A stretch of DNA of 64,000 bases from an uncultured Spirochaetota bacterium. GTDB taxonomy: Bacteria; Spirochaetota; Brevinematia; Brevinematales; JAOACQ01. The notes beneath the pieces are model-generated. The model saw nothing but the letters and a program-made list of their open reading frames with translations. It did no database searches and was not told the origin of the DNA. The position numbers and the translations under genes are program-made. Location: the NCBI GenBank assembly GCA_963835575.1, contig CAWIGG010000004.1, forward strand, positions 992,001 through 1,056,000. The letters run 5' to 3'. The stretch's first letter is position 1, and each line of letters starts with the position of its first letter. This document shows, in pieces, positions 46,001 to 64,000 of this stretch.

Positions 46001-47847
46001 CTGGAATCGCGCTGAAAGAATTTAATTATACCGCCTTCGGGGAAATGCTGGCTATAGGCGATCAGATTGCAATAGACAACGATGCTAAAAAAGGCATTTC
46101 TTATACTGGACATTATTTTGATAAAGACACAAAATTATACTATGCCCGCGCCCGCTACTACGATCCGGGCATAGGGCGGTTTATTACAAGTGATCCGATT
46201 CAAGACCCATCGAAGAGATATGCTCCCGCCGGGCTGAACAGGTATGTTTACGGAGATAACTCGCCTCTGCGTTATATCGACCCTGAAGGCCAATTCGGGT
46301 TGGACGATCTCATAGCAGGAATCGTGGGCGGAATTATCGGAGCGATCAGTAATGTTATTGCTGATATAGCCAGCGGGGACTATAAGGACATTCTTCTTGA
46401 TTCCATACTCGGCAGTACGGCTGGATTTATAAACGGCGTGGTGGAGCATTATGGAATACCGATGTATATATCGTTCAACACAAGGGGATTCGGCGCCGGA
46501 GTGGGCTACAACTTAGGCGGGGTTGTCAGCGTCGGCGCGGGAATTCATTCAGACTGGAGCGGACAGAATTACGGTTTCAGCGTAAACGCCGGACTTGGCG
46601 GTGTTGATAAGTACAAAGGCCTTAGTCTGGGATTCTCGGCGGGCATTGACTACGGCCCTGAAGGCCAGAAGAGCTACTTCGGGTTTAACGCCGGCGCAGG
46701 ATCGATTAATTTCGGCGCTAACTGGAATTATGTTAACGGGCAATACGCCGGTTTCGGGGTTAACGGCGGTTTTGGCGGGGACATCGGTAAAGGTTATTCA
46801 CTCGGACTTAACCTTGGAGCGAACTTTGACGCGAAGGGCAATTACTCAGGCGGCAGCGCAGGAATAAATATCGGGTATAATGAGAGGATTAAAGATTCAA
46901 AGGATTCAATGCAGTATAACGGAAGTCTGGGCATAAATTTCAGCGCGGACGGAAAAGTAACTCCTTACGCTAATTTTACCGCGACGAGGTGTATTAATAT
47001 TCAGAAGAATGCTGAAACGGGGAAGAAAGCCGGGAATAAGACGGCTAACGAAATTGAAATGGAGCGGCAGGGCTTGCAGCGGGATATGGCCGAGAGAATG
47101 AAAACAACTGTAATGAGTATGGAAGCCGGGATGGAAAGACCGGAAACGCCGGGAATGATGGTAATCGGCCAGAGTGTGAACGATGCCAATGACAACCAGA
47201 CTGCGGGCGATGCGATGACTGCCGGGAACGAGAAAGTGGCGGCGGCGAAAGCGGCGTATAATCAGGAAAAACAGCAGGCTATTCAGAACGGGACGCTGGG
47301 GCAATTCTATAAACGGGAAATGCTTGAAAATCTTACTTTTAACCAGGATACAGGATATTGGGTAACAACAATAGACGGGCAGACAATAAATATCGGCAGA
47401 ACAAATATTGATTTAGATTTCAGCACAACCGCAACCTATACTTTAGATCAAAGTAAGGAACATATCTACACGGTTGTTTCAAATATGACTGATGATGCAA
47501 TTATTGGGTTTGCCAACTTCACAAACCATAATGAAGGCTTCGTTGTTACCAGCATGTGGCGAAATACTAATGATCCTCATGGTCATGGGACTGCTTTTGA
47601 TATGGTATTCGGAAATAACACACCTGTTTATGCGGCTGAAGGTGGTATAGTAACTACTGCTGGGAATTATGGAGGAGCCGGAATTATGATTACAATTAGC
47701 GGGACAGATAATTTAAAATACACTTATATGCACAACAATCAGCTATACTATAGTGTAAATGCAAATGTTGATGCTGGGAATAAAATTTCTTTATCGGGTG
47801 GTACGCCAAATTATGCGCCACATTTACATTTCCAAATTGGTAGATAA
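37039..47847 (+). CDS. Secreted Rhs/YD-repeat polymorphic toxin (3602 aa) with C-terminal M23-like peptidase
   Basis: Signal peptide, PG-binding-like N-domain, GDTVDPVTGEL, many YD repeats, core end NSPLRYIDPEG (DPEG at 46279-46290), Gly-rich linker, and C-terminal PVYAAEGG...YMH...PHLHFQI. Confidence 0.92.
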   Translation: MKSKSLAAALLLTCFLVLVYAGTKIALQINGKKVDIAAQNDSRNPYLYNTRLRDIQAKLNKVLSFNLTNYAPIEENGFYNKETEAALEQFREMYYKKYSLQRYYAFSAEDAVEPSSVEGLLDREIPAAADFAREYQEGMKLKNGDPAKYYGNSAWDEVLRIEKGMDGDTVDPVTGELSKTIPLYQTPAGNDHLMPIQLTARYGSQYSGNCGLGDNWYLTESYSLWFSYEKNEMIVQDGSGISQKFNFTNGGFSRDTNNNTDGGLFLNVMLDGALGTEGSTICVITARGETMIFECADNKGQDSVSNVIESISTNSLEVYGYCIVEDLRIYEVTNYTRDFMWSLKTNISVSNYGPTIKMGLYADSSNALDMTMTNSAYTNFSDWLNNGHQTVTGQKMICDKEEFKNKVWKLSDTSEGGWSVSYYAAPLATNAIEFVTNWIWGGAPLSNCTQSDTNFDMRVKVNTNIVYTQGTSYSFRRQPMGQAGIYAGYVLTNSMNRFGSVKSYSYDGFQKLLSINSYSPGGTEIDGVSITYSPAGEKGFIKVITTGLASSANGVITFSYTGNQPDHQLLDTAVVMMDGKADAHRMAYHSELLFGPGSPDGVKLSNSIFSNYSALTNSFTYITNEISFITSNIGELVQQNYVYFWEMYTNITETITHNGINTTTNISSSLFYDDKYYNNSKDYYDLLVQFMESQLPDLISNISSLTDQISNYNSGDLFPRLALLDSHIDSAGPWQEYRYGSFDTNMFGVTNRESAFRTTIVRKQGAECRLDYSGGYTEYHNFSGNTFKFHYDINQTNYDERHVDRIVYPDNSTVSFGYDKKGNITAVTNEINNAYSYGYDDFGNVTNKSMPGRNWYYEYNSVIGRYLGRPTKIVQPDHTVYTMAYDENGEMTNQTLKANDADQGKTLVQVFFSPLSANGFVKTNRDMYGSETVYTYDGSHSPVSVKNPDGGVTAYINDSFGKPLIENRSNLVTNICVYDSRGNIVEQGIAGLNHSFTEYDAAGRRLSSTDPMSNKTIYEYGAGNSLAGVIFPSGEEVRYSYDGDGNKTNEAYYAQSGFTIANKSIVYAYDPEYRLTNKALVQDGETFNYSFQYDAAGNMTLQTAESVLPDGNVPAGVSNSYAYDAISILTNQSDLISGKNISYYYDPMGRLTFENRTVTNGSGYGFSLSNTYDILGRNTASFSFTNGAAVIMTSNDYQDNDRVTVKIDRYGNQSVNYMDFRNNVTNLQYSVFNPLTEENELYTHSYIYDTLGNKTEEIYPDGTRQKWQFVFGNRLLKESGRYSDESAAAWKTYSRDAAGRVTAVNDFENKTWGKSYNSLGRLSSETDPDGRQIFYITDLWGNPMTVQQGSRRRDISYNILNKPVTVNYGDGAADSALYDAMGNVVQSMPGGASNLQTVSRYDNEGKKTYEAGFGLETYFAYDAQGNLIYKKAATAPSNHPQPLLNKEGSRTWTYAYDACGRITEEHLPDGTFISHDYAVSNGLLIETVSGPKRHNTSAADTTVNTYDQMDRLIRSQVCDDGLEAACDIGFFAGKGLISGKVFDRAGLPVKEVRPGNKIKNYKYSPEGRVTNEENEAGEVKSSVYDKNGNLTYMTDFDGNSFSNTYYNSGKLMKSLEPGNAVTSYYYDAYGNMNKKVLPDGSTWLFETDARGRTVKETNPFGGTAAFEYDALGRKMAETGPGGSYTAYDYDGNGIPTGIETQGNDGENAVKISAAVDGFGETNRVEYPTTPSPSSGKEGSQGLIVTYQYDNMGRVTNKTTTPNPLLNKEGSRTTRYKYREDGRLKRTDNPDGTAEMYAYSAAWLLTNRTVLGDTNKGDLPPKRVTAYYYGGYGDGDVRPYVSTGGFGDVECAVDYRGIVTASYYDKAGRLTNRSETAGTEPRNTITIYGLTNINNLFYRTMETWKEETHSRASLQMEWSKTVTDFRGNVLKVYRMEKGQELLTADNTYNAAGKLVSEVRQEDLGSPETRYEYGANGALSKKTEPSGLITEYSYDSAGRITETREYPADNYSQARKTDYQYHQNGRLKRKVLYDFSGPALEDTSYSYDFRGNVINKTDNLRNTAFITFYNAYGEKTEESTLWNGESSDRHYSYDAAGRLYQTTGELGSVTTYTYGDFGQTATKGISYRGDVQPYVSTSYFYDSRGNVITETVYGMTPSGSPSGKGESRLLSYTTSYQYDGWGNRTNTVYPDGSFETSEYDGSGQKINETDRYGYRTAYEYDENGRETKRTSGTPNGNLITETVYDNSGRKISETSHGETGPSRTAQYQYDSSGRLINQQIGDVSSSTGYDAFGNKTWTTTPGPSLNKEGSSTWYYQYDAAGRTTVSIDGEGNRTETSYGFDGDWRLTVTTTPNPSSGKEGSRKIIYDGFGNKIEDVDANGNSEYYQYNAAGKPTVYTDRNSNQTVYIYDSLGRQTATVDANGSVLSNVYDSFNNIIEVVDKEGRHLYREFDWAGRMIWTKDALGNEARYEYTTTPKPLLGKEGNPLGYEVEVFTDAEGNKATTYKYGKMTLAVQDALGNITSYQYNAFGELTATVDPKGNTTSLTYDLRGNKTGETTALGFSTTYQYDNNGNVINEINGEGWIKTTYNRNNQPVRKDYSDGNTKNFLYDSLGRLTRARDNFSDYSYLYDNNGSLTNRYDNINKETLAYEYDGNGNRVKMTAQDKIVNYDYDALNQIKKETVLTTKITKDTKEEINVASGFITNLSIDYSYSPMGRVTNKTYSSGLVVNYEYDPIYRLMKINNTTNGLFLSSFGYTYDKVGNRTKETARESTRIGTNGDGSASGGERVSAFLYDKAYRLVKADYSEGKFEEFEYDNSGNRLRKTSNLDGSNTVTTGYVIDNDNRLLCEQKPSGNISFIYDRAGRIIKKVEGDKVERYQYNQRDLMTKYTVEQNGSITSVSEYTYDINNLRTVKKETPETPGSVGDNTTRFTYDGDNILYEGPSFYLNNIFINSYEAEIQPLRTAVYVKDALGSVRGEIYDNPLPPVESGGSGIALKEFNYTAFGEMLAIGDQIAIDNDAKKGISYTGHYFDKDTKLYYARARYYDPGIGRFITSDPIQDPSKRYAPAGLNRYVYGDNSPLRYIDPEGQFGLDDLIAGIVGGIIGAISNVIADIASGDYKDILLDSILGSTAGFINGVVEHYGIPMYISFNTRGFGAGVGYNLGGVVSVGAGIHSDWSGQNYGFSVNAGLGGVDKYKGLSLGFSAGIDYGPEGQKSYFGFNAGAGSINFGANWNYVNGQYAGFGVNGGFGGDIGKGYSLGLNLGANFDAKGNYSGGSAGINIGYNERIKDSKDSMQYNGSLGINFSADGKVTPYANFTATRCINIQKNAETGKKAGNKTANEIEMERQGLQRDMAERMKTTVMSMEAGMERPETPGMMVIGQSVNDANDNQTAGDAMTAGNEKVAAAKAAYNQEKQQAIQNGTLGQFYKREMLENLTFNQDTGYWVTTIDGQTINIGRTNIDLDFSTTATYTLDQSKEHIYTVVSNMTDDAIIGFANFTNHNEGFVVTSMWRNTNDPHGHGTAFDMVFGNNTPVYAAEGGIVTTAGNYGGAGIMITISGTDNLKYTYMHNNQLYYSVNANVDAGNKISLSGGTPNYAPHLHFQIGR

Positions 47848-47863
47848 TGGGAGGATACCTTTA

Positions 47864-48628
47864 ATGAAACACTTTCTAATTTTTTGCCTGATTTTTATTT
47901 TTGCCGAATTGTACAGCCAAGTCAAGTTAAATGTGGTAGCAAAGACAGGTTTGTTTTTGAGAGATAAAGCAGATAAAAATGGAAAGATATTAACTCAAGT
48001 TCCCTATGGTTCTTCTGTGGATGTAATCAAAAAAGACAGAAAATTTACATTTGATAATATTAATGGTAATTGGGTATTTGTTGAGTACAACAAATTAAAA
48101 GGTTATATTTTTAGTGGTTATTTGTCTGACTTGCCTGCACCAATCATAAATAGTAGCATTAAGGACTATTTTATAAAGCAGATAAAAGTTGAAAAAGTTA
48201 TTAGCTCCAACTTTATTATTTACAATGAAACCAATCATTATACGAATGCCAGTTATGTAACCGTGCTTTTTGGATATGATATTGTCCAAGATTATGTGGA
48301 TGCGGGAATTAAAGAAGGAGAATACGAAGCGGGATTGTATTATAGCACATATTTGTTCAAAAAAAGAAAAATAGAGGAAGTTTTTGTTGTCTTAAAAGCT
48401 CTGGGGTTTTGTAAATACATTGACTATTTTCCAATAAGTACAATTAATTTTCCTCAAAAAGATAAAGAAAGGTATTTAATTGATAAAATTCAAGTGAAGC
48501 GTAAAAGTAATAGGATTGAAGAAATCAAGGTAATTGATTATCCCATGTCAGGTCATAGAGTTATCCAAACTTTAAAGGTTACAAACAATAATGATGTGGT
48601 GTATATTTGGGACGAGTATGGAGATTAG
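47864..48628 (+). CDS. SH3b-domain secreted protein, probable cognate immunity protein
   Basis: Signal peptide MKHFLIFCLIFIFAELYSQ and GLFLRDKA...VPYG...NWVFVEY...GYIFSGYLS. Immediately follows the Rhs gene, with GGAGG RBS. Confidence 0.75.
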   Translation: MKHFLIFCLIFIFAELYSQVKLNVVAKTGLFLRDKADKNGKILTQVPYGSSVDVIKKDRKFTFDNINGNWVFVEYNKLKGYIFSGYLSDLPAPIINSSIKDYFIKQIKVEKVISSNFIIYNETNHYTNASYVTVLFGYDIVQDYVDAGIKEGEYEAGLYYSTYLFKKRKIEEVFVVLKALGFCKYIDYFPISTINFPQKDKERYLIDKIQVKRKSNRIEEIKVIDYPMSGHRVIQTLKVTNNNDVVYIWDEYGD

Positions 48629-48924
48629 GAAAAACAAAAGATTGAAAGCCCGTAGTGGCTACTTTCAATTTTTCAAGTAAGAAATTATAAATGAAAGGGG
48701 AAATAAAGTAAAAAAGAGCGGCAGAAAGGAGAGCAAGCGGAGGGGGTTAAGCCGGTTTCCGGACGGGAATCGGTAAAACCGGATGCTTCAGGTCGCAGGC
48801 TGGACGGAGCCGGTTGATAAGACAGACTGAAGTAAAACGGATGAAGAAGCACGAAGCGATCCGGCGGTTTATGAAGGATTATTTTGACATCCGGGTGAAG
48901 GATTGAGATTATTAAAGACAGATA

Positions 48925-48960
48925 GAAGCCCCGCCGGTAGTTCCGGCGGGGCTTTTTTGT
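48925..48960 (+). terminator. Intrinsic terminator
   Basis: aagccccgccgg-tagtt-ccggcggggcttttttgt. Confidence 0.8.
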
Positions 48961-49044
48961 CATCTCCCCGGCTGGATCGCGCTGATCCGGCTGACCGGGT
49001 TGGCCGGATCGGGAGAAACCGGCGGCTTCTATAGTCCGGATGAT

Positions 49045-49073
49045 TTGACAAAACCATTGCATCGGGATATTAT
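49045..49073 (+). promoter_or_regulatory. Near-consensus sigma70 promoter (duplicated on the minus strand at ~52428-52456)
   Basis: TTGACA - 17 bp - TATTAT. Confidence 0.75.
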
Positions 49074-49133
49074 TTATTGCTTTCAGATCAAGGGGCTTAT
49101 GTTCTTATCATTGAGGTGAGAGTGGGGAAATGG

Positions 49134-49159
49134 GCGATGGCTAAACCGTCGCTTTTTTT
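49134..49159 (+). terminator. Terminator-like hairpin just before the cargo gene RBS
   Basis: gcgatgg-ctaaa-ccgtcgc-ttttttt. Confidence 0.65.
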
Positions 49160-49180
49160 ATTTATAGAGGAAAAATAATT

Positions 49181-52329: not shown

Positions 52330-54512
52330 TCCTCTATAAATAAAAAAAGCGACGGTTTAGCCATCGCCCATTTCCCCACTCTCACCTCAATGATAAGAAC
52401 ATAAGCCCCTTGATCTGAAAGCAATAAATAATATCCCGATGCAATGGTTTTGTCAAATCATCCGGACTATAGAAGCCGCCGGTTTCTCCCGATCCGGCCA
52501 ACCGGATCAGCGCGATCCAGCCGGGGAGATGACAAAAAATCCCCGCCGGAATGCCAGCGGGGCTTCTATCTGTCTTTAATAATCTCAATCCTTCACCTGG
52601 ATATCGAAATAATCCTTCATAAACCGCCGGATCGCTTCGTGCTTCTTCATCCGTTTTACTTCAGTCTGTCTTATCAACCGGCTCCGTCCAGCCTGCGACC
52701 TGAAGCATCCGGTTTTACCGATTCCCGTCCGGAAACCGGCTTAACCCCCTCCGCTTGCTCTCCTTTCTGCCGCTCTTTTTTACTTTATTTCCCCTTTCAT
52801 TTATAATTTCTTACTTGAAAAATTGAAAGTAGCCACTACGGGCTTTCAATCTTTTGTTTTTCCTAATCTCCATACTCGTCCCAAATATACACCACATCAT
52901 TATTGTTTGTAACCTTTAAAGTTTGGATAACTCTATGACCTGACATGGGATAATCAATTACCTTGATTTCTTCAATCCTATTACTTTTACGCTTCACTTG
53001 AATTTTATCAATTAAATACCTTTCTTTATCTTTTTGAGGAAAATTAATTGTACTTATTGGAAAATAGTCAATGTATTTACAAAACCCCAGAGCTTTTAAG
53101 ACAACAAAAACTTCCTCTATTTTTCTTTTTTTGAACAAATATGTGCTATAATACAATCCCGCTTCGTATTCTCCTTCTTTAATTCCCGCATCCACATAAT
53201 CTTGGACAATATCATATCCAAAAAGCACGGTTACATAACTGGCATTCGTATAATGATTGGTTTCATTGTAAATAATAAAGTTGGAGCTAATAACTTTTTC
53301 AACTTTTATCTGCTTTATAAAATAGTCCTTAATGCTACTATTTATGATTGGTGCAGGCAAGTCAGACAAATAACCACTAAAAATATAACCTTTTAATTTG
53401 TTGTACTCAACAAATACCCAATTACCATTAATATTATCAAATGTAAATTTTCTGTCTTTTTTGATTACATCCACAGAAGAACCATAGGGAACTTGAGTTA
53501 ATATCTTTCCATTTTTATCTGCTTTATCTCTCAAAAACAAACCTGTCTTTGCTACCACATTTAACTTGACTTGGCTGTACAATTCGGCAAAAATAAAAAT
53601 CAGGCAAAAAATTAGAAAGTGTTTCATTAAAGGTATCCTCCCATTATCTACCAATTTGGAAATGTAAATGTGGCGCATAATTTGGCGTACCACCCGATAA
53701 AGAAATTTTATTCCCAGCATCAACATTTGCATTTACACTATAGTATAGCTGATTGTTGTGCATATAAGTGTATTTTAAATTATCTGTCCCGCTAATTGTA
53801 ATCATAATTCCGGCTCCTCCATAATTCCCAGCAGTAGTTACTATACCACCTTCAGCCGCATAAACAGGTGTGTTATTTCCGAATACCATATCAAAAGCAG
53901 TCCCATGACCATGAGGATCATTAGTATTTCGCCACATGCTGGTAACAACGAAGCCTTCATTATGGTTTGTGAAGTTGGCAAACCCAATAATTGCATCATC
54001 AGTCATATTTGAAACAACCGTGTAGATATGTTCCTTACTTTGATCTAAAGTATAGGTTGCGGTTGTGCTGAAATCTAAATCAATATTTGTTCTGCCGATA
54101 TTTATTGTCTGCCCGTCTATTGTTGTTACCCAATATCCTGTATCCTGGTTAAAAGTAAGATTTTCAAGCATTTCCCGTTTATAGAATTGCCCCAGCGTCC
54201 CGTTCTGAATAGCCTGCTGTTTTTCCTGATTATACGCCGCTTTCGCCGCCGCCACTTTCTCGTTCCCGGCAGTCATCGCATCGCCCGCAGTCTGGTTGTC
54301 ATTGGCATCGTTCACACTCTGGCCGATTACCATCATTCCCGGCGTTTCCGGTCTTTCCATCCCGGCTTCCATACTCATTACAGTTGTTTTCATTCTCTCG
54401 GCCATATCCCGCTGCAAGCCCTGCCGCTCCATTTCAATTTCGTTAGCCGTCTTATTCCCGGCTTTCTTCCCCGTTTCAGCATTCTTCTGAATATTAATAC
54501 ACCTCGTCGCGG
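52330..54512 (-). repeat. Right arm of ~2.2 kb inverted duplication
   Basis: Reverse complement of 46979-49171. Confidence 0.95.
52863..53627 (-). CDS. Identical second copy of the SH3b probable immunity protein
   Basis: Translation identical to 47864-48628. Confidence 0.75.
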   Translation of the reverse strand: MKHFLIFCLIFIFAELYSQVKLNVVAKTGLFLRDKADKNGKILTQVPYGSSVDVIKKDRKFTFDNINGNWVFVEYNKLKGYIFSGYLSDLPAPIINSSIKDYFIKQIKVEKVISSNFIIYNETNHYTNASYVTVLFGYDIVQDYVDAGIKEGEYEAGLYYSTYLFKKRKIEEVFVVLKALGFCKYIDYFPISTINFPQKDKERYLIDKIQVKRKSNRIEEIKVIDYPMSGHRVIQTLKVTNNNDVVYIWDEYGD

Positions 54513-56195
54513 AATAATTCGCGTAAGGCGTTACCCTCCCATCCGGGCTGACGTTAATCCCTATGCTTTCATTATGAAGCATCGAATCATTAGAGCCTTC
54601 AATCCCCTGCCTGTACCCGATGTTTACGCCGAAGTTCGCTCCGGCATAATTGCCTTTAGCGTCGAAGTTCATTCCGAGGCTAAGGCCCGCATTGTAGCCT
54701 TTGCCGACATCACTGCCGATGCTTCCGTTAAATCCGTACCCCGCATACTGGCCGTTCTGGAAATTCAGTCCCGCGCCAACGCTTACCGCTCCGAATCCGG
54801 CGCTGAAGCCTATGTTGCTGCTGTTTGTACCGTTAGAATAGTAATCAACACCCGCCGAAAATCCCATGTGGAACCCGCTGTAAGGGTCGGCGCTTCCAAG
54901 CCCGGCGTTCACGTTGAAACCGAAATTAGAATTGTCCCATTTCCCATGAACTCCCGCGCCAACTGTAACGGCATTGCCAATAGAATAGCCGACTCCGGCG
55001 CTGTATCCTCTTGTCGAGAGACTTATATACAGTGGTATTCCATGCCCCGTCATTTCCATTGATGCCGCGCCTGAAAAAGCCCCAAGATTCAGATTCATGA
55101 AGTAGTCCCGCCGAAATTCATTGTCCCGTTTAACAGATCGCCTATATTTGTTATCGCCGCATTTATAGTCCCGATTACTCCGCCGACTATCGCAAGGAAA
55201 AGTTCATATATAAATTTTCCTTCGGGGTCGGTGTAACGGAAAGGATTGTTGTTGCCATAGACATATCTGTTTAATCCGGGGGGTGAATACCGCAAATCGG
55301 GGTTACTGACAGGATCGCTTGAGATAAACCGGCCCGCGCTCGCGTCATAATAGCGCGCGCGGTTATAATAAAGCTTTGAATCCTTATCGAAATAAGAACA
55401 GGTATAGGAAATTCCCTGTTTAGCATTGCCGTCAATAGTTATCGCCGAGGTTTTCCCCAAAGGCGGTGTAATCGAAAGTCTATGAAAGAGAATGAAACCG
55501 TAGTGGTATATGATAGTAATGGGGTTGTCATATATCTCGCCCCTCACGCTCCCGAGGGCGTCCTTGACATAAACGGCCGTCCTCAACGTCTGTATTTCTG
55601 CTTCGTAACCGTTTATCATAATATTATTGAGATAAAAAGACGGGCCTTCATATAATATATTATCGCCGTCGTAAGTGAAGCGGGTTGTATTGTCCCCCAT
55701 ACTTCCGGCGGTCTCCGGCGTTTCTTTTTTCAATATTCTTAAATTATTAATATCGTAAGTGTATTCTGAAAAAGCGACTATTTCCCCGTTCCGCTCAATG
55801 GTGTATTTCGTCATCAAATCGCGCTGGTTATACTGATAGCGTTCTACTTTATCCCCTTCGGTCTTCTTGACCAGCCTTCCGGCTCTGTCATAGATATAAG
55901 AAATGTTACCCGAAGGCTTTTGCTCACACAATAAGCGATTGTCGTTATCATAGACGTAGTTTATGGTAACAGTATTGCTCCCATCTAAATTCGACGTCTT
56001 TTTCAGCCGGTTACCTGAATTGTCATAAGCGAATTCCTCAAACTTTCCTCGGTCATAATCGGCCTTGACAAGCCTGTACGCCTTATCATAAAGAAACGCC
56101 GACACCCGTTCCCCACCGGAGGCCGAACCATCCCCATTCGTGCCTATTCGCGTGGATTCGCGGGCCGTTTCCTTCGTCCTGTTCCCCACTTTGTC
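53644..56195 (-). pseudogene. Orphan Rhs 3' fragment (core end, linker, M23-like tip), frameshifted
   Basis: Homologous to 45301-47847. Split into two ORFs at ~55095. A locally shifted frame at ~55440-55490 hides FDYTAFGE. Contains NNPFRYTDPEG. Confidence 0.85.
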
Positions 56196-56447
56196 ATATT
56201 GATATTCTTTTTCTCTCCCCCATGCGCGTTAAGAAAACAATTCAGGGCTGCCGGAAAAATTATTAATTATTGGCCGGTGGTACTCCCGCTTTTTAAGACC
56301 CGCGCACTCAAGCCCGCGTCCCTGGGAAAAGCCGGCAAACCATAGCCTGAGAGCTATAACCGCAAAAAACGGGAGGAATGAGATTAAGCCTCATTCCCCC
56401 CGCCGGAAATAGTTTATCAAACTGATTTGAAAAAGGCAAGAAAAGAT

Positions 56448-57425
56448 TTAATTGTTTTCGGGACGCGCCTCATCACCGTCATTGACGAGCATACCGGTAC
56501 AGCGGGGATGCGTTTTTTCATAAACCTTCCGCAGATCAACGGGCATGACGCGGGAATAAATCTGAGTGGTGCTGAGGAAGGCATGTCCTAAAAGTTCCTG
56601 AACATAGCGGATGCTTGCCCCGTTGGCGATTAAATGGGTGGCGCAGGTATGGCGCAGGGTATGAGTGGAAACCCTCTTTTTAATCCCCGATTTCAGGACG
56701 TAGTTATGCAATGCGGCGCGGAAAGTTCCGGGGACAAGGCTGTCTCGTCCGACGGTGAAAAACACATTTTCGTTAGCCGCATTATTGCAATAGAGAGGCC
56801 GGACTTTATCAAGATACAGCTTGAGGAACCTTTTGGCCTGTTTTGTGATGGGTACAACCCGGTCTTTAGAACCTTTGCCCTTGATGAAAAGGTAGGGGCC
56901 TTCAAGGTCGAGGTCGTTGAGTTTAAGGGAACAAAGTTCCGCGCTTCGGATTCCGCTTCCGTAGAATATTTCAAGGATGGCCCTGTTGCGAAGCCCGACC
57001 GGATGTTTTATATTCGGCTGTCGGAGCAGGAGCTTCATTTCCTCGACGGAAAGGATGTCTTTAGGAAACGGGCGTTCAACGCGTTCCAGCGGAATATTGC
57101 GGGCGGGGTTTATGAAGATCATATCATTATTTTCAAGGAAGGAAAGCCAGAGGCGGAGGAAACTTGTCTCAGTCCTGCGGTAGCTGTCGCTGAAGGGCTT
57201 TCCGTTTTTCTTGCGGTGGTTTTTGAGGGAAAGGATGAATTTCTCAATATGTTCTGTTTTAATGTCCGTAACGTCCCGGACGGAAGGGGTGCACCCCAAA
57301 GATTCGAGGAACGGGAAAAGGTGATTGAAGAAAGTGTCAAACCTCAAGATTGTGGCCCCGCTCAAGTTCCTTTTTCTGAGGTGTTCGATGAACTTTTCCC
57401 TTGCGATGTAAATGGATTTATTCAT
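56448..57425 (-). CDS. Tyrosine recombinase (XerC/D-like) 2
   Basis: YGSGIRSAEL, KGKGSKDR, HTLRHTCATH and LGH....TQIY catalytic motifs. Confidence 0.93.
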   Translation of the reverse strand: MNKSIYIAREKFIEHLRKRNLSGATILRFDTFFNHLFPFLESLGCTPSVRDVTDIKTEHIEKFILSLKNHRKKNGKPFSDSYRRTETSFLRLWLSFLENNDMIFINPARNIPLERVERPFPKDILSVEEMKLLLRQPNIKHPVGLRNRAILEIFYGSGIRSAELCSLKLNDLDLEGPYLFIKGKGSKDRVVPITKQAKRFLKLYLDKVRPLYCNNAANENVFFTVGRDSLVPGTFRAALHNYVLKSGIKKRVSTHTLRHTCATHLIANGASIRYVQELLGHAFLSTTQIYSRVMPVDLRKVYEKTHPRCTGMLVNDGDEARPENN

Positions 57426-58734
57426 GATTTTCCTCCTGCGTGTTCTCTTGAGATATTATCTCTCTTGGATGGAATGCCCGGAGCATGCGTTTAAGGTCTC
57501 CTTTTACCACTCTTGTGTAGGTTTCCGTCGTGTCGAGGCTTGTGTGCCCCAGCATTTCCTGAATATAGCGGATGTCCGCGCCGTTTTTAAGCATGTGGGT
57601 TGCGCATGCATAGCGGAAGGAATGAGGGATGAGGTGTTTTTTGATCCCGGCCTTAAGGGCGTATTTTTTTATCAGGCTTCCGATGAGGTTAACTGTCATC
57701 CGCTTTTTGAAAACGGAGAGAAAGAGGGCTTTGAGGTGCACCTCTTCATCCGGGTTATGAGGCGTGCCTTCCGGGCGTTCTTTCAGGTAATCCCGGATGC
57801 GGGAAAGGGCGATGTCATTGATCGGGACAGCGCGGTCTTTTTTATTCTTGCCTTTGTAAACGGTGATAAGTTTTTCGGTAAAATCGACGTTCCCGATATC
57901 GAGGTTAACCAGTTCTTTGACCCGGATTGCCGAGCCGTAGAGCGTTTCAATGATGGCGATGTCGCGGGAGCCGTAAGGCACGCCCCTGTGGCTTTTCATT
58001 TCGATAGAGCTTATAAGGCGGTCGATTTCGGCGAGGGTGGGGATATCGCGGGATATCCGCTTCGGGACTTTTGGGATTTCCACGGATTTTGAAGGGTCTG
58101 TAAGGATGATATTTTCGGAGCAGAGGAACTTGAAGAAGTTGCGGACATTCACAAGGATATTCGCGCGGGTGGTAACGTTGTAAGGCTTTTGTATTTTGCT
58201 CTTTCCCCGGCTTCCTTTGTAAACGAGGAGATAAAGGGCATAGCCGGAAACAACTTTTTTATCTACCCGCGCGATGTCCGTTATATTATTATTTTCAAGG
58301 TATTCCAGAAAGCGCCGGATGAGCGAGCGGGTAATATCAAGGGTGCGTTCGGAAACTTCCTTTGACGAGGAGATACGGCGGATATATCTTTCGAGAAGTT
58401 CCGTAAAGGGAATTGCGTTCGGGGAAACGGAATCTCTTGAAGCTCCCGGAATAAAGTTCTTCCATTCGAGGAACCGGACGAACTCGCGGGTCTTAAAGTA
58501 CCCGGTTTTATTGGGTTTATGGGAACTCCACTCCCCGGTCCCGTGTTTAATCATGGCGAGATATTTATCCGACTGTTCCCTTGTGAAGCCGGAAAGCGGC
58601 ATATTGTTCTTCTCAAGATATTCCAGAAGCTTCCGTGCGTAAAGGGCCTTATGCTTCAAGACATTTTCCTTTAACGGCTTAAAAGCCTTCGCGTGTGTAA
58701 TGTACTCTTTCAGTACGGCGTCTTTATCAATCAT
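57418..58734 (-). CDS. Tyrosine recombinase (XerC/D-like) 1, with extended N-terminus
   Basis: YGSAIRVKEL, KGKNKKDR, HSFRYACATH and LGH..LDTTETY motifs. Confidence 0.92.
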   Translation of the reverse strand: MIDKDAVLKEYITHAKAFKPLKENVLKHKALYARKLLEYLEKNNMPLSGFTREQSDKYLAMIKHGTGEWSSHKPNKTGYFKTREFVRFLEWKNFIPGASRDSVSPNAIPFTELLERYIRRISSSKEVSERTLDITRSLIRRFLEYLENNNITDIARVDKKVVSGYALYLLVYKGSRGKSKIQKPYNVTTRANILVNVRNFFKFLCSENIILTDPSKSVEIPKVPKRISRDIPTLAEIDRLISSIEMKSHRGVPYGSRDIAIIETLYGSAIRVKELVNLDIGNVDFTEKLITVYKGKNKKDRAVPINDIALSRIRDYLKERPEGTPHNPDEEVHLKALFLSVFKKRMTVNLIGSLIKKYALKAGIKKHLIPHSFRYACATHMLKNGADIRYIQEMLGHTSLDTTETYTRVVKGDLKRMLRAFHPREIISQENTQEENHE

Positions 58735-58855
58735 ACGGTAATACCTCCTTTCAAAATATTTTGGCTCTGCCTCTCCCCCCGCTCCTACCGCTCACACTCG
58801 ATTCAAGCCTTATTTTACAAAGGTTTGAAGCTCAAAAGTGTGAGCGCTCGCAGTT

Positions 58856-61738
58856 TCACACACTCACACGGTCGGCAGAGCGAAGCCGGAGTGACATTTC
58901 TTCCGGCGTGGGGATTCTATCAAGCATTAAACGCTCCATTTCTTCTTCCAGAATGATCCTGTAAGCGTGGGTCTGGCCTCTGAAAGAACCCGATATGATT
59001 TCCAGAAACTCATAGTCGGCGAGAATCCCGGTATATTTCCTCACTTGAAAATGGCTCCAGCCGGAGTATTCCCATACCATCTTCCTGGTAAAGAGAATGT
59101 CCTTGACAGGCTTGTTATTCTCCCCGGATATCTCCGATACCATCTCCCTGATTATTCCATAAAGGTCTCTGGCGTTTTTCGGAATATCGGAAAGGGTGTT
59201 CGAGAGGATCCCGCTTTTGACGAGAAGGTCATAGGTTATTTTATAGTCGTCGAGGCTGGCTTCGATGTACTCAAAGGTTTCTTTTGCCGCCGCGTCCTCA
59301 ATCGTTTTCCTTTCCCGCCGGTATTGATTGAAAAAAGTAACGGCGTTAAGCACCTGAATGAATTTCATCTGATCGCGCCGGGCTTCCAGCCTTCTTTCAG
59401 GGAATCCCATCAGTTCGGCGTAAGGATTGATGACTAAAACCGGCTTTAAAAGCTTCTGCGCGGCCTTATGCTTTTCAATGATAGCGGGGATTTTCCGCTT
59501 TATGAGGAAGCCGGCCGGGGTTTGAAGGAATCTCTGATACTCAAGGATTCTTGCCGTCTGTTCCTGCGTTTCATCGACAAAGAGGACAAGGCACCGGTTA
59601 AGGTTTTCAGGATTGAGGTTTTCAATCCTGCTGGCCGTCTCGATGTAGGCGATCGGCCCCTTTGTTTTTATTTTGACGCTTTTCATCTGTCCCGTTTTCT
59701 CATCTTTCATCGTAACAAAGCGGGTGATCTCCTTACTTGAGATAAGTTCCCTTAACGGGTACTCTATATTTTCATTGCCCTTGCTTTCTCCGAGGCAGAC
59801 GAACTTATGGCTTAAATCGGAAGCGTAGTAGAGTGCTGTGTCCGACGCGCTGGATATGGCGACGACTTCCTCATCAGGCAGGAGCTTCCTGACTGTCTCC
59901 ACAAGCTTGGTTTTACCGGCGGAAGAACGGGAAATGATAATGCTGGCCAGAGGTTCTTCCATCTTCCGGGAAGCGGCGATGAGATAGACAAGGATTTTAT
60001 TCATTTCCTCCCCGATGTAGCCCAATGTCGATAAATCGTTTCTCACTTCCTCAAGGAGGGAAGGACTTTTGAGAAGTTCCAGCCCTATGGCTTTTTCCTC
60101 GTCCGAGAGGGAAACTTCCACCGCCCCGGCCTTTGAAAGTATCTGGTTATCCCGGAGCCTTTCCAGCCTGTCGAGGATCGTTTCAAGGTGTGAAAGGATT
60201 GTTTCAAAGGAAACCTCGAAGCGCGCCCCGATAGTGTTCGCGAAGGCGGCGCGCATCCGGGCGGAGTAAAGGTTCACGCTGTCATAGAAGAAGTTTTCCT
60301 CTTTAAGGTGATGGACGCGGACTCCGGCCTTGAGGCTATTTTCAAAATCTTCCTTTATTCCCCTGAGCCGATAAGTAAAGCCGTCGATAGTGAATTCATA
60401 ATCTCCATTCGGAAGCTGTTTCATTTCGTTTGATTGTACTTCTTGAGGCGGACTCTCTTCTATTATATTAGAAGCTGGCGCGATGTTTTGAGGCGGAGCT
60501 GTGAACCGCGTTTCTTGAGGTATTACCGGAGGTATCACTTCTTCAACAAGCCGTTTCATTTCTTCGGGGGTGGCCTTACCTGCCGGAATAGATAAAATTT
60601 TCTGAGCTATATCATCAATGCCCTGCGCTTCCTCGATTAATCTTTTGAGTGAGAGTCCGCCTTCCTCGATGGATGAAATCTTCATCAAGAGTTCATTAAT
60701 GTCTTTGACTTTGAGGCCGCGCGTCTCCTCTGGAATAGTCAGGGTAAAGACATGGGAAAAGCCTTCTTTCTTAATCCGTTCGGAAAGCTTTTTTGAAGCG
60801 AACTTTCCCGCCCCGTCATTATCATAGGCTATGATTATTTTGCGGGTATTGTTTTCCTCCATAAGTTTGAGGTGGTTTTCGGTAAAGCCCTGAATTCCGA
60901 AAGAAGCCGTTACGTTCAGGAAGCCGAGCCGGACACAGGACAGCGCGTCAATGACGCTTTCGGTTATTATGATTTCCTCATACACCTTGAAAGCTTTTGA
61001 GTTGAACACCCCTTCGTGTTTTCCCTTAAGGTAGCGGTGCTTGATCTTGGCTTCTTCATTGATAGAGCGTCCATAGATTTCAACAACGCGGTTTTCCCCG
61101 TCCATAATCGGAAAGATGATACAGCCTTTGAATAACTCAAAGACGCTTTCCTTTCCGGATTTGTTTCTAAGTCTGCCGATGATACCGAGGCTTTCAAGGA
61201 TTTCCAGCTCTTCGCCGGTCTTTGAAAGCGTTTCCGGTATGTTGCCTTTAGAAAATCCGAGTTTAAAGGTATTTATTATTTCCGGCGTTCCGATTCCTCT
61301 TTGTTCAAGGTATTTTAGAGCCTCTGGACTTTCTAAAAGGTTTTTATGATAGATTTCAGCAAGTCTTTCAAGAATCGGGATTCTTTTATTCTTATCAAGG
61401 CTTACAGGCTCCGGCGCGGTTTCTTTCTTAAGAGATACTTTCACTTTTTTAACCGGCTCTTGAATGTTCAAATTACCGGCAAGATAATTTACCGCCTCAT
61501 TGAATTTGAGGCCGCGCCTTTTCATCACATAGCTGAATATATCCCCGCCCTGTTCACAGCCGAAGCAATGGTAAAGCTGTTTTTCTGTATCGACGGAAAG
61601 CGAAGGCGTTTTATCATCGTGAAAGGGACAGAGCGTCATAAATTTTCCCTGCCCCGCCGGGATGAGGTCATGCCCCTCCCGCCGGAGGTATTCCTCCAGC
61701 GGGAGAGAGTTCTTGATTTTCTCTTTAATGTTTTCCAT
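58856..61738 (-). CDS. DnaG-like primase (CHC2 zinc finger + Toprim) fused to a P-loop ATPase/helicase-like domain
   Basis: CPFHDDKTPS...HCFGC, ITESVIDALS, YDND.AG, KDINE and SRSSAGKT motifs. Confidence 0.9.
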   Translation of the reverse strand: MENIKEKIKNSLPLEEYLRREGHDLIPAGQGKFMTLCPFHDDKTPSLSVDTEKQLYHCFGCEQGGDIFSYVMKRRGLKFNEAVNYLAGNLNIQEPVKKVKVSLKKETAPEPVSLDKNKRIPILERLAEIYHKNLLESPEALKYLEQRGIGTPEIINTFKLGFSKGNIPETLSKTGEELEILESLGIIGRLRNKSGKESVFELFKGCIIFPIMDGENRVVEIYGRSINEEAKIKHRYLKGKHEGVFNSKAFKVYEEIIITESVIDALSCVRLGFLNVTASFGIQGFTENHLKLMEENNTRKIIIAYDNDGAGKFASKKLSERIKKEGFSHVFTLTIPEETRGLKVKDINELLMKISSIEEGGLSLKRLIEEAQGIDDIAQKILSIPAGKATPEEMKRLVEEVIPPVIPQETRFTAPPQNIAPASNIIEESPPQEVQSNEMKQLPNGDYEFTIDGFTYRLRGIKEDFENSLKAGVRVHHLKEENFFYDSVNLYSARMRAAFANTIGARFEVSFETILSHLETILDRLERLRDNQILSKAGAVEVSLSDEEKAIGLELLKSPSLLEEVRNDLSTLGYIGEEMNKILVYLIAASRKMEEPLASIIISRSSAGKTKLVETVRKLLPDEEVVAISSASDTALYYASDLSHKFVCLGESKGNENIEYPLRELISSKEITRFVTMKDEKTGQMKSVKIKTKGPIAYIETASRIENLNPENLNRCLVLFVDETQEQTARILEYQRFLQTPAGFLIKRKIPAIIEKHKAAQKLLKPVLVINPYAELMGFPERRLEARRDQMKFIQVLNAVTFFNQYRRERKTIEDAAAKETFEYIEASLDDYKITYDLLVKSGILSNTLSDIPKNARDLYGIIREMVSEISGENNKPVKDILFTRKMVWEYSGWSHFQVRKYTGILADYEFLEIISGSFRGQTHAYRIILEEEMERLMLDRIPTPEEMSLRLRSADRVSV

Positions 61739-61749
61739 GCTGTCCTCCC

Positions 61750-62115
61750 TTATTTCCAGATAACAAGGAACCGGACGGAGAGTTCAAGGCAGATGCGGAG
61801 CGTTGAGCCTGTGCCTCTGGAAATGCCATCCCAGAACAGGACAACAAAATCGCAATATTTTACCAGCTCCCTATTTCTGACAATGCCCGCAGACCGTCCG
61901 TATTTATGCCACAGGGCCGGAAACACTTTCAAGTCCAGCGCATGGGCGCGGGCATACCGCTCCGCGAGGGCGTCAGCGCCTTGAGGACATCCGCCCGACA
62001 CCACAACATCGGCGCAGGACAAATCCAGAGCGTCGAGCGTTTTCTCAAGCTTCGCATAGTCGGTAAAAGAACGCGAGCCGACAACCCCGATTTTCACATA
62101 GTTTTTATTTTCCAT
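61750..62115 (-). CDS. SLOG-superfamily protein (YspA/DUF2493-like)
   Basis: VVGSRSF, VSGG..GADALAE.YA, W...G..AG..RN and FWDG.S.GT motifs. Confidence 0.85.
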   Translation of the reverse strand: MENKNYVKIGVVGSRSFTDYAKLEKTLDALDLSCADVVVSGGCPQGADALAERYARAHALDLKVFPALWHKYGRSAGIVRNRELVKYCDFVVLFWDGISRGTGSTLRICLELSVRFLVIWK

Positions 62116-62225
62116 TTATTCCTCCCGCCTTCATGCTGGCCGCTATGCCGCTTTTGAAGACGCCCGGTCGTACCCCCGCTGATACCCTTTTGTCAAGTAC
62201 TTTTTTAGATTTATTTTACTGATAC
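61998..62225 (-). repeat. Element head, repeated in inverted orientation at 63770-64000
   Basis: Identical to the reverse complement of 63770-64000 except one short patch (cgaccggg vs aaggggtttcc). Confidence 0.93.
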
Positions 62226-62563
62226 TTTCAGTACAAAGACTTGAAAAAAGAAAATATCCGGCCTTTGATTAAAAGCCTTAATGACTTTCATAACTAAACA
62301 CAAACAGGCCATGTCGTTTTGGCATGGGTTTTGACATTCGCAGAAACCCATGCCAAAACGGAGAAAGCTTTAGAATGGAATAATAAGACATCTCCGTTCC
62401 GGCATATTTTTTGACGGCCGCAAAAAGATATGCCGGAACGGTGTTACCTCAATTCTTAAAATTATTAGTTTATTAACAATTCAATAATGTCTTTAAGTGT
62501 TTTGCAGACTCTTATTATTTGACAAAATATCCATATGGGTATATATTATTTTAGGATTGAAAG

Positions 62564-62944
62564 ATGGAATTAAAATTTTTTACGTCAAAAGATGGAAAAC
62601 AACCTGTTCTTGATTTCATACGTTCTTTAGAAAAGCCGGACCGTGCTAAAATATACGGATGTCTTGACAGTATAGAAATGTTAGGTTTTGAAACACCCAG
62701 AGTAGAATTCCGGCAAATTGAAGGAAAGCTCTGGGAAATCAAGATAAAGACTGTTTCGGGCGGATATAGAGTATTTTATATATCCATCCATCATCATATC
62801 CTTGTTTTACTTCACGTTTATAAGAAACAGTCGCAAAAAGCGCCAGCAAAAGAAATAAAGACAGCGAAAACCCGTTTAAAGGAGGTAATTGAAAATGAGG
62901 GCGATTACATTAAAGGAAGCGATAGCGGAAGAAATGAAAGATGA
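62564..62944 (+). CDS. Type II TA toxin, RelE/ParE (HigB/Gp49-like) family
   Basis: Paralog of 20752-21105 (shared PRVEFRQIEGKLWEIKI). Confidence 0.88.
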   Translation: MELKFFTSKDGKQPVLDFIRSLEKPDRAKIYGCLDSIEMLGFETPRVEFRQIEGKLWEIKIKTVSGGYRVFYISIHHHILVLLHVYKKQSQKAPAKEIKTAKTRLKEVIENEGDYIKGSDSGRNER

Positions 62945-63191
62945 GGAATTCGCAGTCCTTTTTGAGAATGAGAGAATAATAAATAACTTAGCTAAAACTA
63001 TAGTGGAGATGAGGCAAAAAAGAGGCTTGACACAAGCTGAATTAGCCGAAAAAGCCCATACTACACAGCCGGTAATAGCTCGTCTGGAAAAAGGTTCTGA
63101 TTCGCGGATTCCATCATTGGAGCTTTTAAACCGAATTGCTCATGCGCTTGGCAAAGAAATATTCATTGATTTTAAGCCAGACCATCATTAA
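62895..63191 (+). CDS. XRE-family HTH antitoxin
   Basis: Paralog of 21083-21382. Confidence 0.88.
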   Translation: MRAITLKEAIAEEMKDEEFAVLFENERIINNLAKTIVEMRQKRGLTQAELAEKAHTTQPVIARLEKGSDSRIPSLELLNRIAHALGKEIFIDFKPDHH

Positions 63192-63882
63192 AACACTCTT
63201 CTAAAAACAGTAAAGCCCTGTTCTTTTTAAAAGCTAAAGTATAATCGCTTTAATATAAGGACAGGGCTTTTTTATTTAAAATGGAAAGTCAGCCTCTCAT
63301 TTAAAACAAAAAGATTACTTCACTCTGGTATGGGTTTTGCATCCGCATAAACCCATACCAGAGTGCCGAAAGCTTTTCGCAGTAAAAAAGGAGTTTTCTA
63401 ATTATGAATAGACAAATAGTCGTCTTCACTTTGGCACGGGTTTTGACATTCGCACAAACCCGTGCCAAAGTGCTGATGGCCTTTCTATTATAATAATAAA
63501 TGGGTATTATTCATTAGACAGAAGCCTTTCTTCATCGCCTTATGTTTTTAAAAAAAGCCCTCTTCGCCCTGGCATAGTTTTTGACGTCCGCAAAAAACTA
63601 TGCCAGGGCGTACAAATCTTTTCAAAACGAAAAAGAGAAATTTATCAAAATCCTTTGTTCAAAGGCGGTTATCAACAAACCTTTGTTTTTAAAGAAAGAA
63701 TTAATTATCTAACCGTTCACTTTTAAAACATTCCTTGTTATTAAATGCAAGCCATGTGTTTTCAATCCCGTATCAGTAAAATAAATCTAAAAAAGTACTT
63801 GACAAAAGGGTATCAGCGGGGGTAAAGGGGTTTCCCGTCTTCAAAAGCGGCATAGCGGCCAGCATGAAGGCGGGAGGAATAA

Positions 63883-64000
63883 ATGGAAAATAAAAACTAT
63901 GTGAAAATCGGGGTTGTCGGCTCGCGTTCTTTTACCGACTATGCGAAGCTTGAGAAAACGCTCGACGCTCTGGATTTGTCCTGCGCCGATGTTGTGGTGT
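63883..64000 (+). CDS. Second copy of the SLOG protein (truncated by the window end)
   Basis: MENKNYVKIGVVGSRSFTDYAKLEKTLDALDLSCADVVV, identical to the start of 61750-62115. Confidence 0.88.
   Translation, partial: MENKNYVKIGVVGSRSFTDYAKLEKTLDALDLSCADVVV

What the first reader, a model, noticed from the sequence alone, without database searches (positions are those of the whole stretch)
62315..63610. Five covarying hairpins with a conserved loop between the two divergent element heads
Seen: five same-orientation palindromes, e.g. cgttttggcatgggttt-tgacattcgcag-aaacccatgccaaaacg, cactttggcacgggttt-tgacattcgcac-aaacccgtgccaaagtg and cgccctggcatagtttt-tgacgtccgcaa-aaaactatgccagggcg. Stem sequences change with compensatory pairing while the loop is conserved, which points to selection on structure. 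Start-to-start spacing is 79, 927, 106 and 138 bp. The TA operon fills the 927-bp gap and the other spacers are unique and AT-rich. Inference: these could be attC-like single-strand recombination sites for the neighbouring recombinases (TA as a cassette), primase/origin hairpins, or a repeated structured RNA. The TTTTGACAT and TCGCA-AA parts loosely resemble Xer/dif arms, which is speculative. They are not CRISPR repeats or canonical attC sites.
Basis: partly seen in the sequence, partly recalled or inferred. Interest (0 to 1): 0.85.

Follow-up and report, generated by a model that had tools for sequence, protein, structure and literature searches.

The report
Stand-alone sigma-54-box DNA hairpins
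The five hairpins are real and are free-standing relatives of a small stem found inside this bacterium's integron-like repeats; each carries a sequence spaced like a sigma-54 RNA-polymerase box, so they are more likely docking or insulating marks at the head of a mobile element than gene-swapping sites.

Summary
Observation confirmed. The five hairpins, plus a sixth 10 kb beyond the window, have 17-bp stems with 101 of 102 Watson-Crick pairs; 10 of 17 pairs covary (0 of 500 shuffles as high).

They are not attC sites. They lack the outer AAC...GTT helix, the toxin-antitoxin operon has its own promoter and terminator-like hairpin, and a model of the hairpins found no convincing copy in 97 plus 20 other loci of related primase-recombinase elements.

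Their kin lie elsewhere. Among 718 hairpin loci in the genome, a profile of the six ranks the inner helices of the host's attC-like repeats at places 7 to 17. The same two-armed module occurs in attC-like repeats of other genomes, in the inverted ends of one related element, and as facing pairs in viral contigs.

On the + strand all six arms have sigma-54 spacing (GG-N10-GC or GA), and the host has rpoN. Best guess (0.4): a sigma-54 polymerase docking site acting as roadblock or insulator. Against it: four of six have A at -12, single boxes are common, and nothing was tested at the bench.

The parts
62315..62360 (+). Hairpin HP1: 17-bp perfect stem, 12-nt centre; sigma-54-spaced box (GG-N10-GA) at 62320-62334
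62394..62441 (+). Hairpin HP2: 19-bp stem with one T-G pair; box (GG-N10-GA) at 62400-62414; loop close to the attC-like inner helix read on its bottom strand
63321..63365 (+). Hairpin HP3: 17-bp perfect stem, 11-nt centre; box (GG-N10-GC) at 63326-63340
63427..63472 (+). Hairpin HP4: 17-bp perfect stem; box (GG-N10-GA) at 63432-63446; loop nearly identical to HP1
63565..63610 (+). Hairpin HP5: 18-bp perfect stem; box (GG-N10-GA) at 63570-63584
62519..62547 (+). Sigma-70-type promoter of the TA operon (11 of 12 consensus)
   Evidence: homologous promoter at the second TA copy
62564..63191 (+). Gp49/RelE-like toxin (62564-62944) and HTH antitoxin (62889-63191)
63205..63277 (+). Separate terminator-like hairpin with T run after the TA operon; not of the HP family
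   Evidence: I22; z -5.0; not called by the simple terminator scan
55537..62225 (-). Left copy of the element: SLOG gene (61750-62115), CHC2-Toprim primase with C-terminal ATPase-like part (58856-61738), two tyrosine recombinases (57418-58734, 56448-57425), Rhs stub (55095-56189)
   Evidence: the ATPase reading is from a P-loop-like motif seen in the sequence, not from a family hit
63770..64000 (+). Head of the right copy (promoter region and start of SLOG gene). It continues beyond the window to 70473; further on, outside the window, lies hairpin HP6 (G000:C4:1066101-1066147; GG-N10-GC on both strands), after the Rhs tip and SH3 gene and before a hicA gene

Best explanation
The hairpins are free-standing, perfected copies of a two-armed DNA module that also forms the inner helix of this host's attC-like repeats, and they likely work as docking sites for sigma-54 RNA polymerase that would damp read-through into the toxin-antitoxin and primase-recombinase operons they precede. 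Shown: the structure, the likeness to the attC-like inner helix, the absence of attC outer arms, sigma-54 spacing on the + strand in 6 of 6, and rpoN in the genome. Inferred: that sigma-54 holoenzyme binds; that without an activator it sits as a closed complex and acts as a roadblock; and that arm complementarity is kept because the folded form rebuilds the box and ends it in a mismatch or fork near -12, a shape the holoenzyme binds tightly (PMC5505868, passages). My odds: kinship about 0.85, sigma-54 docking about 0.4.
For: Kinship: in an unpatterned test over 718 hairpin loci of the genome, an HP-only profile ranks the six first and attC-like inner helices at ranks 7-17; model R2 gives the same next-best hits. 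The HP + strand lines up with the attC-like bottom strand, loop included. The module recurs in 4 of 200 other genomes of the phylum: three in attC-like flanks and one in the 0.9-kb inverted ends of a related ATPase-recombinase-TA element. Sigma-54 reading: GG-N10-G(C/A) in 6 of 6 + arms, with variation concentrated in the unspecified positions. Anchored score of 10 or more of 13 in 12 of 17 module loci against 4 of 701 other hairpin loci. The genome's only two 13-of-13 matches are the two arms of one attC-like helix. In attC-like repeats and the G074 end the intact box sits on the bottom strand (17 of 25 arms, three of them from a divergent repeat type) rather than the top (2 of 21), the same strand sense as HP +. 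The nifH promoter printed in PMC5505868 has the same GGCA-N4-TTTT-GC form. Facing pairs occur in viral contigs, often in arrays and with unpaired middles (48 of 124 pairs), as expected of protein sites. rpoN and six strong activator-domain hits are present.
Against: Four of six + arms (four of the five in the window) have A instead of C at -12, and the - strand of HP1-5 has N11 spacing. Single boxes are common and not enriched for the right spacing: 122 N10 against 141 N11. The 17 module loci are one family, so they count as about one draw (roughly 0.6-3% by the null, before allowing for my having chosen the motif after seeing it). Seven of 25 attC-like bottom arms are N11 and one is GT, so some repeats have no intact box. 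The top/bottom asymmetry can come from attC bottom-strand folding bias alone (inference). The viral and phylum hits were found with HP-derived patterns, so their shared letters are partly circular. In HP1, 2, 4 and 5 the stem opens at about -14/-13, not -12/-11. Each downstream operon seems to have its own TTGACA-type promoter (scan hit only for the TA; the others read by eye). No binding or expression data.
Confidence: 0.4

Rival explanations
1. The folded single strand is a handle for a DNA enzyme, either the host's integron-like recombinase (which would meet the same helix inside attC-like repeats) or the element's own primase or recombinases as an origin or loading hairpin; the sigma-54 likeness would be chance.
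For: Almost pure Watson-Crick pairing on both strands. The middle four positions pair in 23 of 24 cells here and 43 of 48 in cellular relatives, against 48 of 124 in viral pairs. One related element carries the module in both inverted ends. HP clusters sit just upstream of the primase operon.
Against: No convincing R2 match in 97 non-own sources (best 17.1 bits) or in 20 more element loci. The closest relative available (L036, same SLOG gene and promoter) lacks it in 1.7 kb upstream. Many loci are short and may stop before the region.
Confidence: 0.22
2. They are near-neutral relics of attC-like inner helices that were copied into the island and perfected by template switching between the arms.
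For: Template switching corrects imperfect inverted repeats, more so with long arms (PMC5941160, passages). Outer pairs are perfect while mismatches next to the loop persist. Copies are mosaics of one another (HP3 has HP6's outer stem and HP1's inner stem). Absent from most related elements.
Against: Six copies keep one orientation, the invariant GG.A and TTTTG and a 33-35 nt GG-to-CC span while spacers are unrelated. No outer attC-like arms came along.
Confidence: 0.18
3. They act as RNA hairpins in read-through transcripts (RNase III cleavage, 3' protection or pausing).
For: Long stable stems in one orientation, between transcription units.
Against: One G-U-type pair in 102, few for an RNA helix (own knowledge), though template switching would also remove them. 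No U-tract after the stems and no terminator call. No Rfam family.
Confidence: 0.12
4. One reading: attC-like recombination sites for the two neighbouring recombinases, with the TA operon as an excisable cassette.
For: HP1-HP2 and HP4-HP5 form similar doublets on either side of the TA. Both recombinases show intact-looking catalytic motifs (read). The hairpin is kin to part of an attC-like repeat.
Against: No outer AAC...GTT helix: best 6-8 of 12 pairs for HP1-5 and none for HP6, against 9-11 in 7 of 8 host repeats. The second TA copy (72% identical) has no hairpins, and likeness starts at the promoter and ends at the stop codon. The sharp junction with the full Rhs gene lies at the Rhs stub, about 6 kb away. 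Both recombinases score far below the integron-integrase cut-off (100 and 111 against 265 bits).
Confidence: 0.08

Closest known systems
Integron attC sites, in particular the inner (variable terminal) part of this host's attC-like repeats
   Same: Same two-armed helix, same GG/GT-CA-N4-TTTT-G spacing, shared loop letters, compensatory changes in the middle.
   Different: No R/L outer arms, 45-48 nt against about 160-170 nt for the host repeats (published attC range 55-141 nt, PMC7370490 passages), perfect on both strands, not one per gene, no integron-type integrase next to them.
Sigma-54 (RpoN) -24/-12 promoters and binding sites; early-melted nifH fork substrate
   Same: GG-N10-GC/GA spacing on the + strand; GGCA-N4-TTTT-GC form as in nifH; rpoN present. 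Non-promoter binding sites with possible repressive roles are discussed in PMC3844500 (passages).
   Different: Embedded in a perfect palindrome with a second, facing arm; A at -12 in four of six; no activator site identified; binding untested.
rAID systems of Bacteroidales (bioRxiv 10.1101/471110 and 10.1101/2025.05.03.651265, passages)
   Same: Tyrosine recombinase near toxin-immunity-type genes, with repeated intergenic motifs likened to integrons.
   Different: Here a primase and two recombinases; the hairpins lie upstream of the operon, not between co-oriented immunity genes. I did not see the rAID motifs themselves (supplementary figure not read).
REP/BIME-type palindromes
   Same: Short intergenic palindromes in a cluster (own knowledge).
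   Different: Six stand-alone copies within 12 kb of one island, no further strong match in 4.39 Mb; the genome's dispersed palindrome families are different sequences.

Membership tests
attC site | Outer R''/R' boxes (RYYYAAC ... GTTRRRY) with a paired L helix | tested here: not met
   6-8 of 12 pairs at best for HP1-5, no AAC/GTT pair for HP6; host repeats 9-11 in 7 of 8.
attC site | One site after each gene of a cassette array | tested here: not met
   Three of four spacers are 33-92 nt with no gene; the TA has its own promoter and terminator-like hairpin.
attC site | Integron integrase | tested here: not met
   Neighbouring recombinases score 100 and 111 bits on TIGR02249 (cut-off 265); the host's candidate on C7 scores 212 and lies elsewhere.
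attC site | Recombination of the folded bottom strand | not testable with these tools
   Needs an assay.
Inner helix of the host's attC-like repeats (kinship) | Same arm sequence, spacing and pairing | tested here: met
   Ranks 7-17 of 718; 80% of cells paired across 15 rows, 0 of 500 shuffles (rows partly chosen by pattern).
Sigma-54 binding site | GG at -24 and GC at -12 with N10 between | tested here: inconclusive
   Exact in HP3 (+) and HP6 (both strands); GA variant in HP1, 2, 4, 5; N11 on the - strand of HP1-5.
Sigma-54 binding site | Host encodes sigma-54 and activators | tested here: met
   One rpoN hit, E 4e-54; six strong PF00158 hits of 11.
Sigma-54 binding site | Holoenzyme binding; activator-dependent start | not testable with these tools
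   Needs binding and transcription assays.
Xer/dif site | Fixed 11-bp arms with a 6-8 bp centre (recalled) | tested here: not met
   Arms differ between copies, centre 10-13 nt; the only ATAA-N6-8-TTAT in the island is in a spacer at 63496.
REP family | Many dispersed copies genome-wide | tested here: not met
REP family | Linked RAYT transposase | not tested
   No RAYT search was run; none among the island genes scanned.
Intrinsic terminator | Short GC stem followed by a T run | tested here: not met
   One search lists none of the five; the T run is inside the stem.
Known RNA family | Rfam match at gathering score | tested here: not met
   best 26.6 bits against cut-off 60; 0 matches in 4 loci.
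CRISPR array | Near-identical repeats at regular spacing | tested here: not met
   62-80% identity, spacing 79-927; cas genes not searched.
Core site of the primase-recombinase element family | Present in related elements | tested here: not met
   No convincing match in 97 non-own sources or 20 more element loci; one exception, G074. Closer relatives (67-86% primases) had no DNA available except L036.

The most novel reading that the evidence does not exclude
A portable DNA hairpin made of two facing sigma-54 boxes is shared by integron-like cassette sites, toxin-tip mobile elements and phages. When single-stranded or extruded it rebuilds an early-melted sigma-54 promoter and captures RNA polymerase, coupling the folding state of mobile DNA to silencing or priming.
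Probability: 0.2. Interest if true: 0.8.

Novelty: new variant of a known kind. Interest (0 to 1): 0.5.

Why it matters
The inner part of large attC sites is usually treated as structural filler (own knowledge). Finding it alone, in six perfected copies, suggests it has a job of its own. If that job is binding sigma-54 polymerase, it gives mobile DNA a way to insulate toxic or replicative genes and makes the role of facing sigma-54 pairs testable with a 46-nt substrate. If binding fails, the locus is still a clean natural case of palindrome homogenisation. The limit is that the stand-alone form is known from this genome and one weaker relative only.

Tried and rejected
Model R1 was built on a structure string one column off (shown); its searches are largely sequence-driven and found only the six own copies convincingly; I rely on R2. 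One search was mis-registered; one search is the valid count. The pair scan recovered only 1 of 6 own hairpins, so I do not use it. The scan sees the HP6/attC class only (0 hits in 860 kb of related loci). Strict HP patterns: 0 in viral contigs; 1 imperfect match in 400 other genomes; 1 chance-like match in 42 other genomes of the class. blastn of HP3-5 in plasmids and phages gave only short chance hits. The genome-contig scan with a single protein gave 1 locus. Sequencing runs: no RNA holder listed; low-depth contigs, no joints, which says nothing on excision. General hairpin scans of related loci found other hairpins but not this family. Paper searches for the element or for sigma-54 boxes in attC sites or phage palindromes showed no description in the listings; I read listings and passages only, no supplements, and most subscription papers are outside the library.

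Full report
OBSERVATION. A sixth (HP6) lies 10 kb past the window end, at G000:C4:1066101. Over the six 17-bp stems, 101 of 102 pairs are Watson-Crick. Ten of 17 pairs change on both sides, 0 of 500 shuffles reach that, and slid registers fall to 33-49% paired. Both strands fold as DNA with z from -6.3 to -10.7. The stems are not free: GG.A and TTTTG are invariant.

SETTING. The hairpins fill a 1.5-kb island between two inverted copies of a 6.7-kb element that differ at one base over about 5.8 kb. Each copy encodes a SLOG protein, a CHC2-Toprim primase, two tyrosine recombinases and an Rhs stub. Related elements are widespread: 553 homologs, 31 plasmid records with a near-full-length match and 23 of 400 other genomes of the phylum. 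In the four plasmid records I opened, they sit beside haemagglutinin-like, M23 or nuclease-tip genes and small toxin or TA genes, three with repeated copies in the stretch shown and one of these an 11.3-kb circular record. The likeness to the full Rhs gene starts sharply at the stub, which is where I would expect the element's own crossover (inference).

NOT CASSETTE SITES. The hairpins have no enclosing AAC...GTT helix (6-8 of 12 pairs at best; host attC-like repeats 9-11 in 7 of 8), which is the defining part of attC (PMC7370490, passages). The TA operon has its own promoter and a separate terminator-like hairpin. A second, 72% identical TA copy in the window has no such hairpins, and likeness runs from promoter to stop codon only. 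Model R2 found no convincing match in 97 non-own sources of about 0.9 Mb (best 17.1 bits) and none in 20 more element loci. The closest relative with DNA in hand, L036, shares the SLOG gene and promoter but not the hairpins. Many of these loci are short, so absence is not proven for each.

WHAT THEY ARE KIN TO. R2's next-best hits in the genome lie inside 160-170 nt repeats with AAC and GTT ends; a profile found 36 full or partial matches, and a recombinase on contig C7 scores 212 bits on the integron-integrase model, below its cut-off of 265. Earlier scan notes describe this array as integron-like; I checked the repeats' ends but not their mobility. In a test that used no pattern, I collected all 718 hairpin loci of the genome and scored them with a profile of the six arms: the six came first and attC-like inner helices took ranks 7-17. 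The hairpins' + strand matches the repeats' bottom strand, loop included. A pattern for the module hit 4 of 200 other genomes: three in attC-like flanks and one, G074, stand-alone. The G074 copies lie in 0.9-kb inverted ends around a homolog of the primase's C-terminal part (31%, E 8e-72), a recombinase (33%) and a Panacea-domain gene. A variant pattern hit 2 of 41 genomes, both with attC-like flanks, one partial.

SIGMA-54 READING. All six + arms read GG-N10-GC or GG-N10-GA, the spacing of the sigma-54 -24 and -12 elements (GG and TGC per PMC3844500, passages; the full consensus I scored against is recalled). The nifH promoter printed in PMC5505868 has the same GGCA-N4-TTTT-GC form, and that paper states that holoenzyme binds tightly to DNA mismatched at -12/-11 (passages). 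Folded HP6 pairs through -12 and opens there; HP1, 2, 4 and 5 open one or two bases earlier. Twelve of 17 module loci score 10 or more of 13, against 4 of 701 other hairpin loci. The host has rpoN and activator genes, and rpoN was found in 5 of 5 other genomes tested, four of which hold the module. In viral contigs the module occurs in 33 plus 11 stretches, often as arrays of facing boxes (14 of the 44 viewed) whose middle bases mostly do not pair (48 of 124), whereas cellular copies do (23 of 24 here, 43 of 48 in relatives).

AGAINST IT. Four of six have A at -12; the - strand of HP1-5 is N11; single boxes are common (122 N10, 141 N11); 8 of 25 attC-like bottom arms have no intact box; the family counts as about one draw and I chose the motif after seeing it; pattern-found relatives are partly circular. 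Perfect covariation needs no selection if template switching homogenises the arms (PMC5941160, passages), and the copies are mosaics of each other.

MECHANISM. Most likely (0.4): sigma-54 holoenzyme docks on the module, in duplex or folded form, stays closed without activator (PMC7057263, passages) and limits read-through into the TA, hicA and primase-recombinase operons that follow. Binding, roadblock and insulation are inferred. Rivals: a folded handle for a DNA enzyme (0.22), neutral perfected relics (0.18), RNA hairpins (0.12), cassette sites (0.08).

NOVELTY. No Rfam family. Eight paper searches on the element or the module listed no description; I saw listings and passages only and no supplements, which matters most for the rAID intergenic motifs (10.1101/471110 and 10.1101/2025.05.03.651265, passages). 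Earlier unchecked scan notes report facing sigma-54 pairs in phages and in one bacterial repeat family; a word look-up for a link to attC-like repeats returned nothing. I file this as a new variant of known kinds, with interest 0.5.

Noticed in passing
G000:C7:3180-3214; C2:3620-46203 and C2:2028738-2045375: The inner helix of the host's attC-like repeats carries a sigma-54-spaced box on the bottom strand in most copies; the C7 copy has the genome's only two perfect consensus matches, facing each other.
   Followed up: partly
window 19612-64000 and G000:C6:1-7247: The whole Rhs and element region seems to lie between rpoC (ends 19611) and rpsL (C6:7248), so C4 and C6 are probably adjacent; gene names are my reading of the translations.
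   Followed up: no
window 46451-49171 and 52330-55043: A second inverted duplication (93%) repeats the Rhs M23 tip, its SH3 gene and 550 nt of structured downstream DNA; the left element copy carries nearly the same tip as the full Rhs.
   Followed up: partly
window 56199, 45297 and L153:about 7570: Both Rhs stubs join the element at the same point of the Rhs core, a candidate crossover for toxin-tip exchange.
   Followed up: partly
L153:11635-11825 and 11955-12175; G000:C6:5104-5311; L036:120-870 and 1340-1520: Long (190-250 nt) imperfect palindromes flank HP6; similar-looking ones lie on C6 and upstream of the closest relative's primase operon.
   Followed up: no
L239:223-1220 and 6958-7600: G074 element with about 0.9-kb inverted ends that include decayed pieces of its own recombinase gene's 3' end and the hairpin module.
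   Followed up: partly
L032:1-11289: An 11.3-kb circular Lonsdalea record made almost only of primase, xerC-like, symE, toxin-tip and immunity genes; may be an excised form of this element family.
   Followed up: no
L053:3163, L059:5224, L069:120, L108:1032: A different hairpin with a TTGGC-containing loop lies upstream of the primase operon in four related elements, next to a divergent HTH-like gene in three.
   Followed up: no
L196, L205, L209, L217, L221, L199, L201, L197 (around position 1500): Viral contigs with clusters of facing sigma-54-like boxes 3-4 nt apart, mostly outside long reading frames.
   Followed up: partly
window 62163-62170 against 63825-63835: The two element heads differ in one 8-11 nt patch just downstream of the shared TTGACA, inside otherwise identical sequence.
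   Followed up: no
G000:C1 and C7: Two small contigs carry a MobF relaxase, ParA-like and recombinase genes and share genes with each other; possibly a mobile platform for the attC-like array.
   Followed up: no
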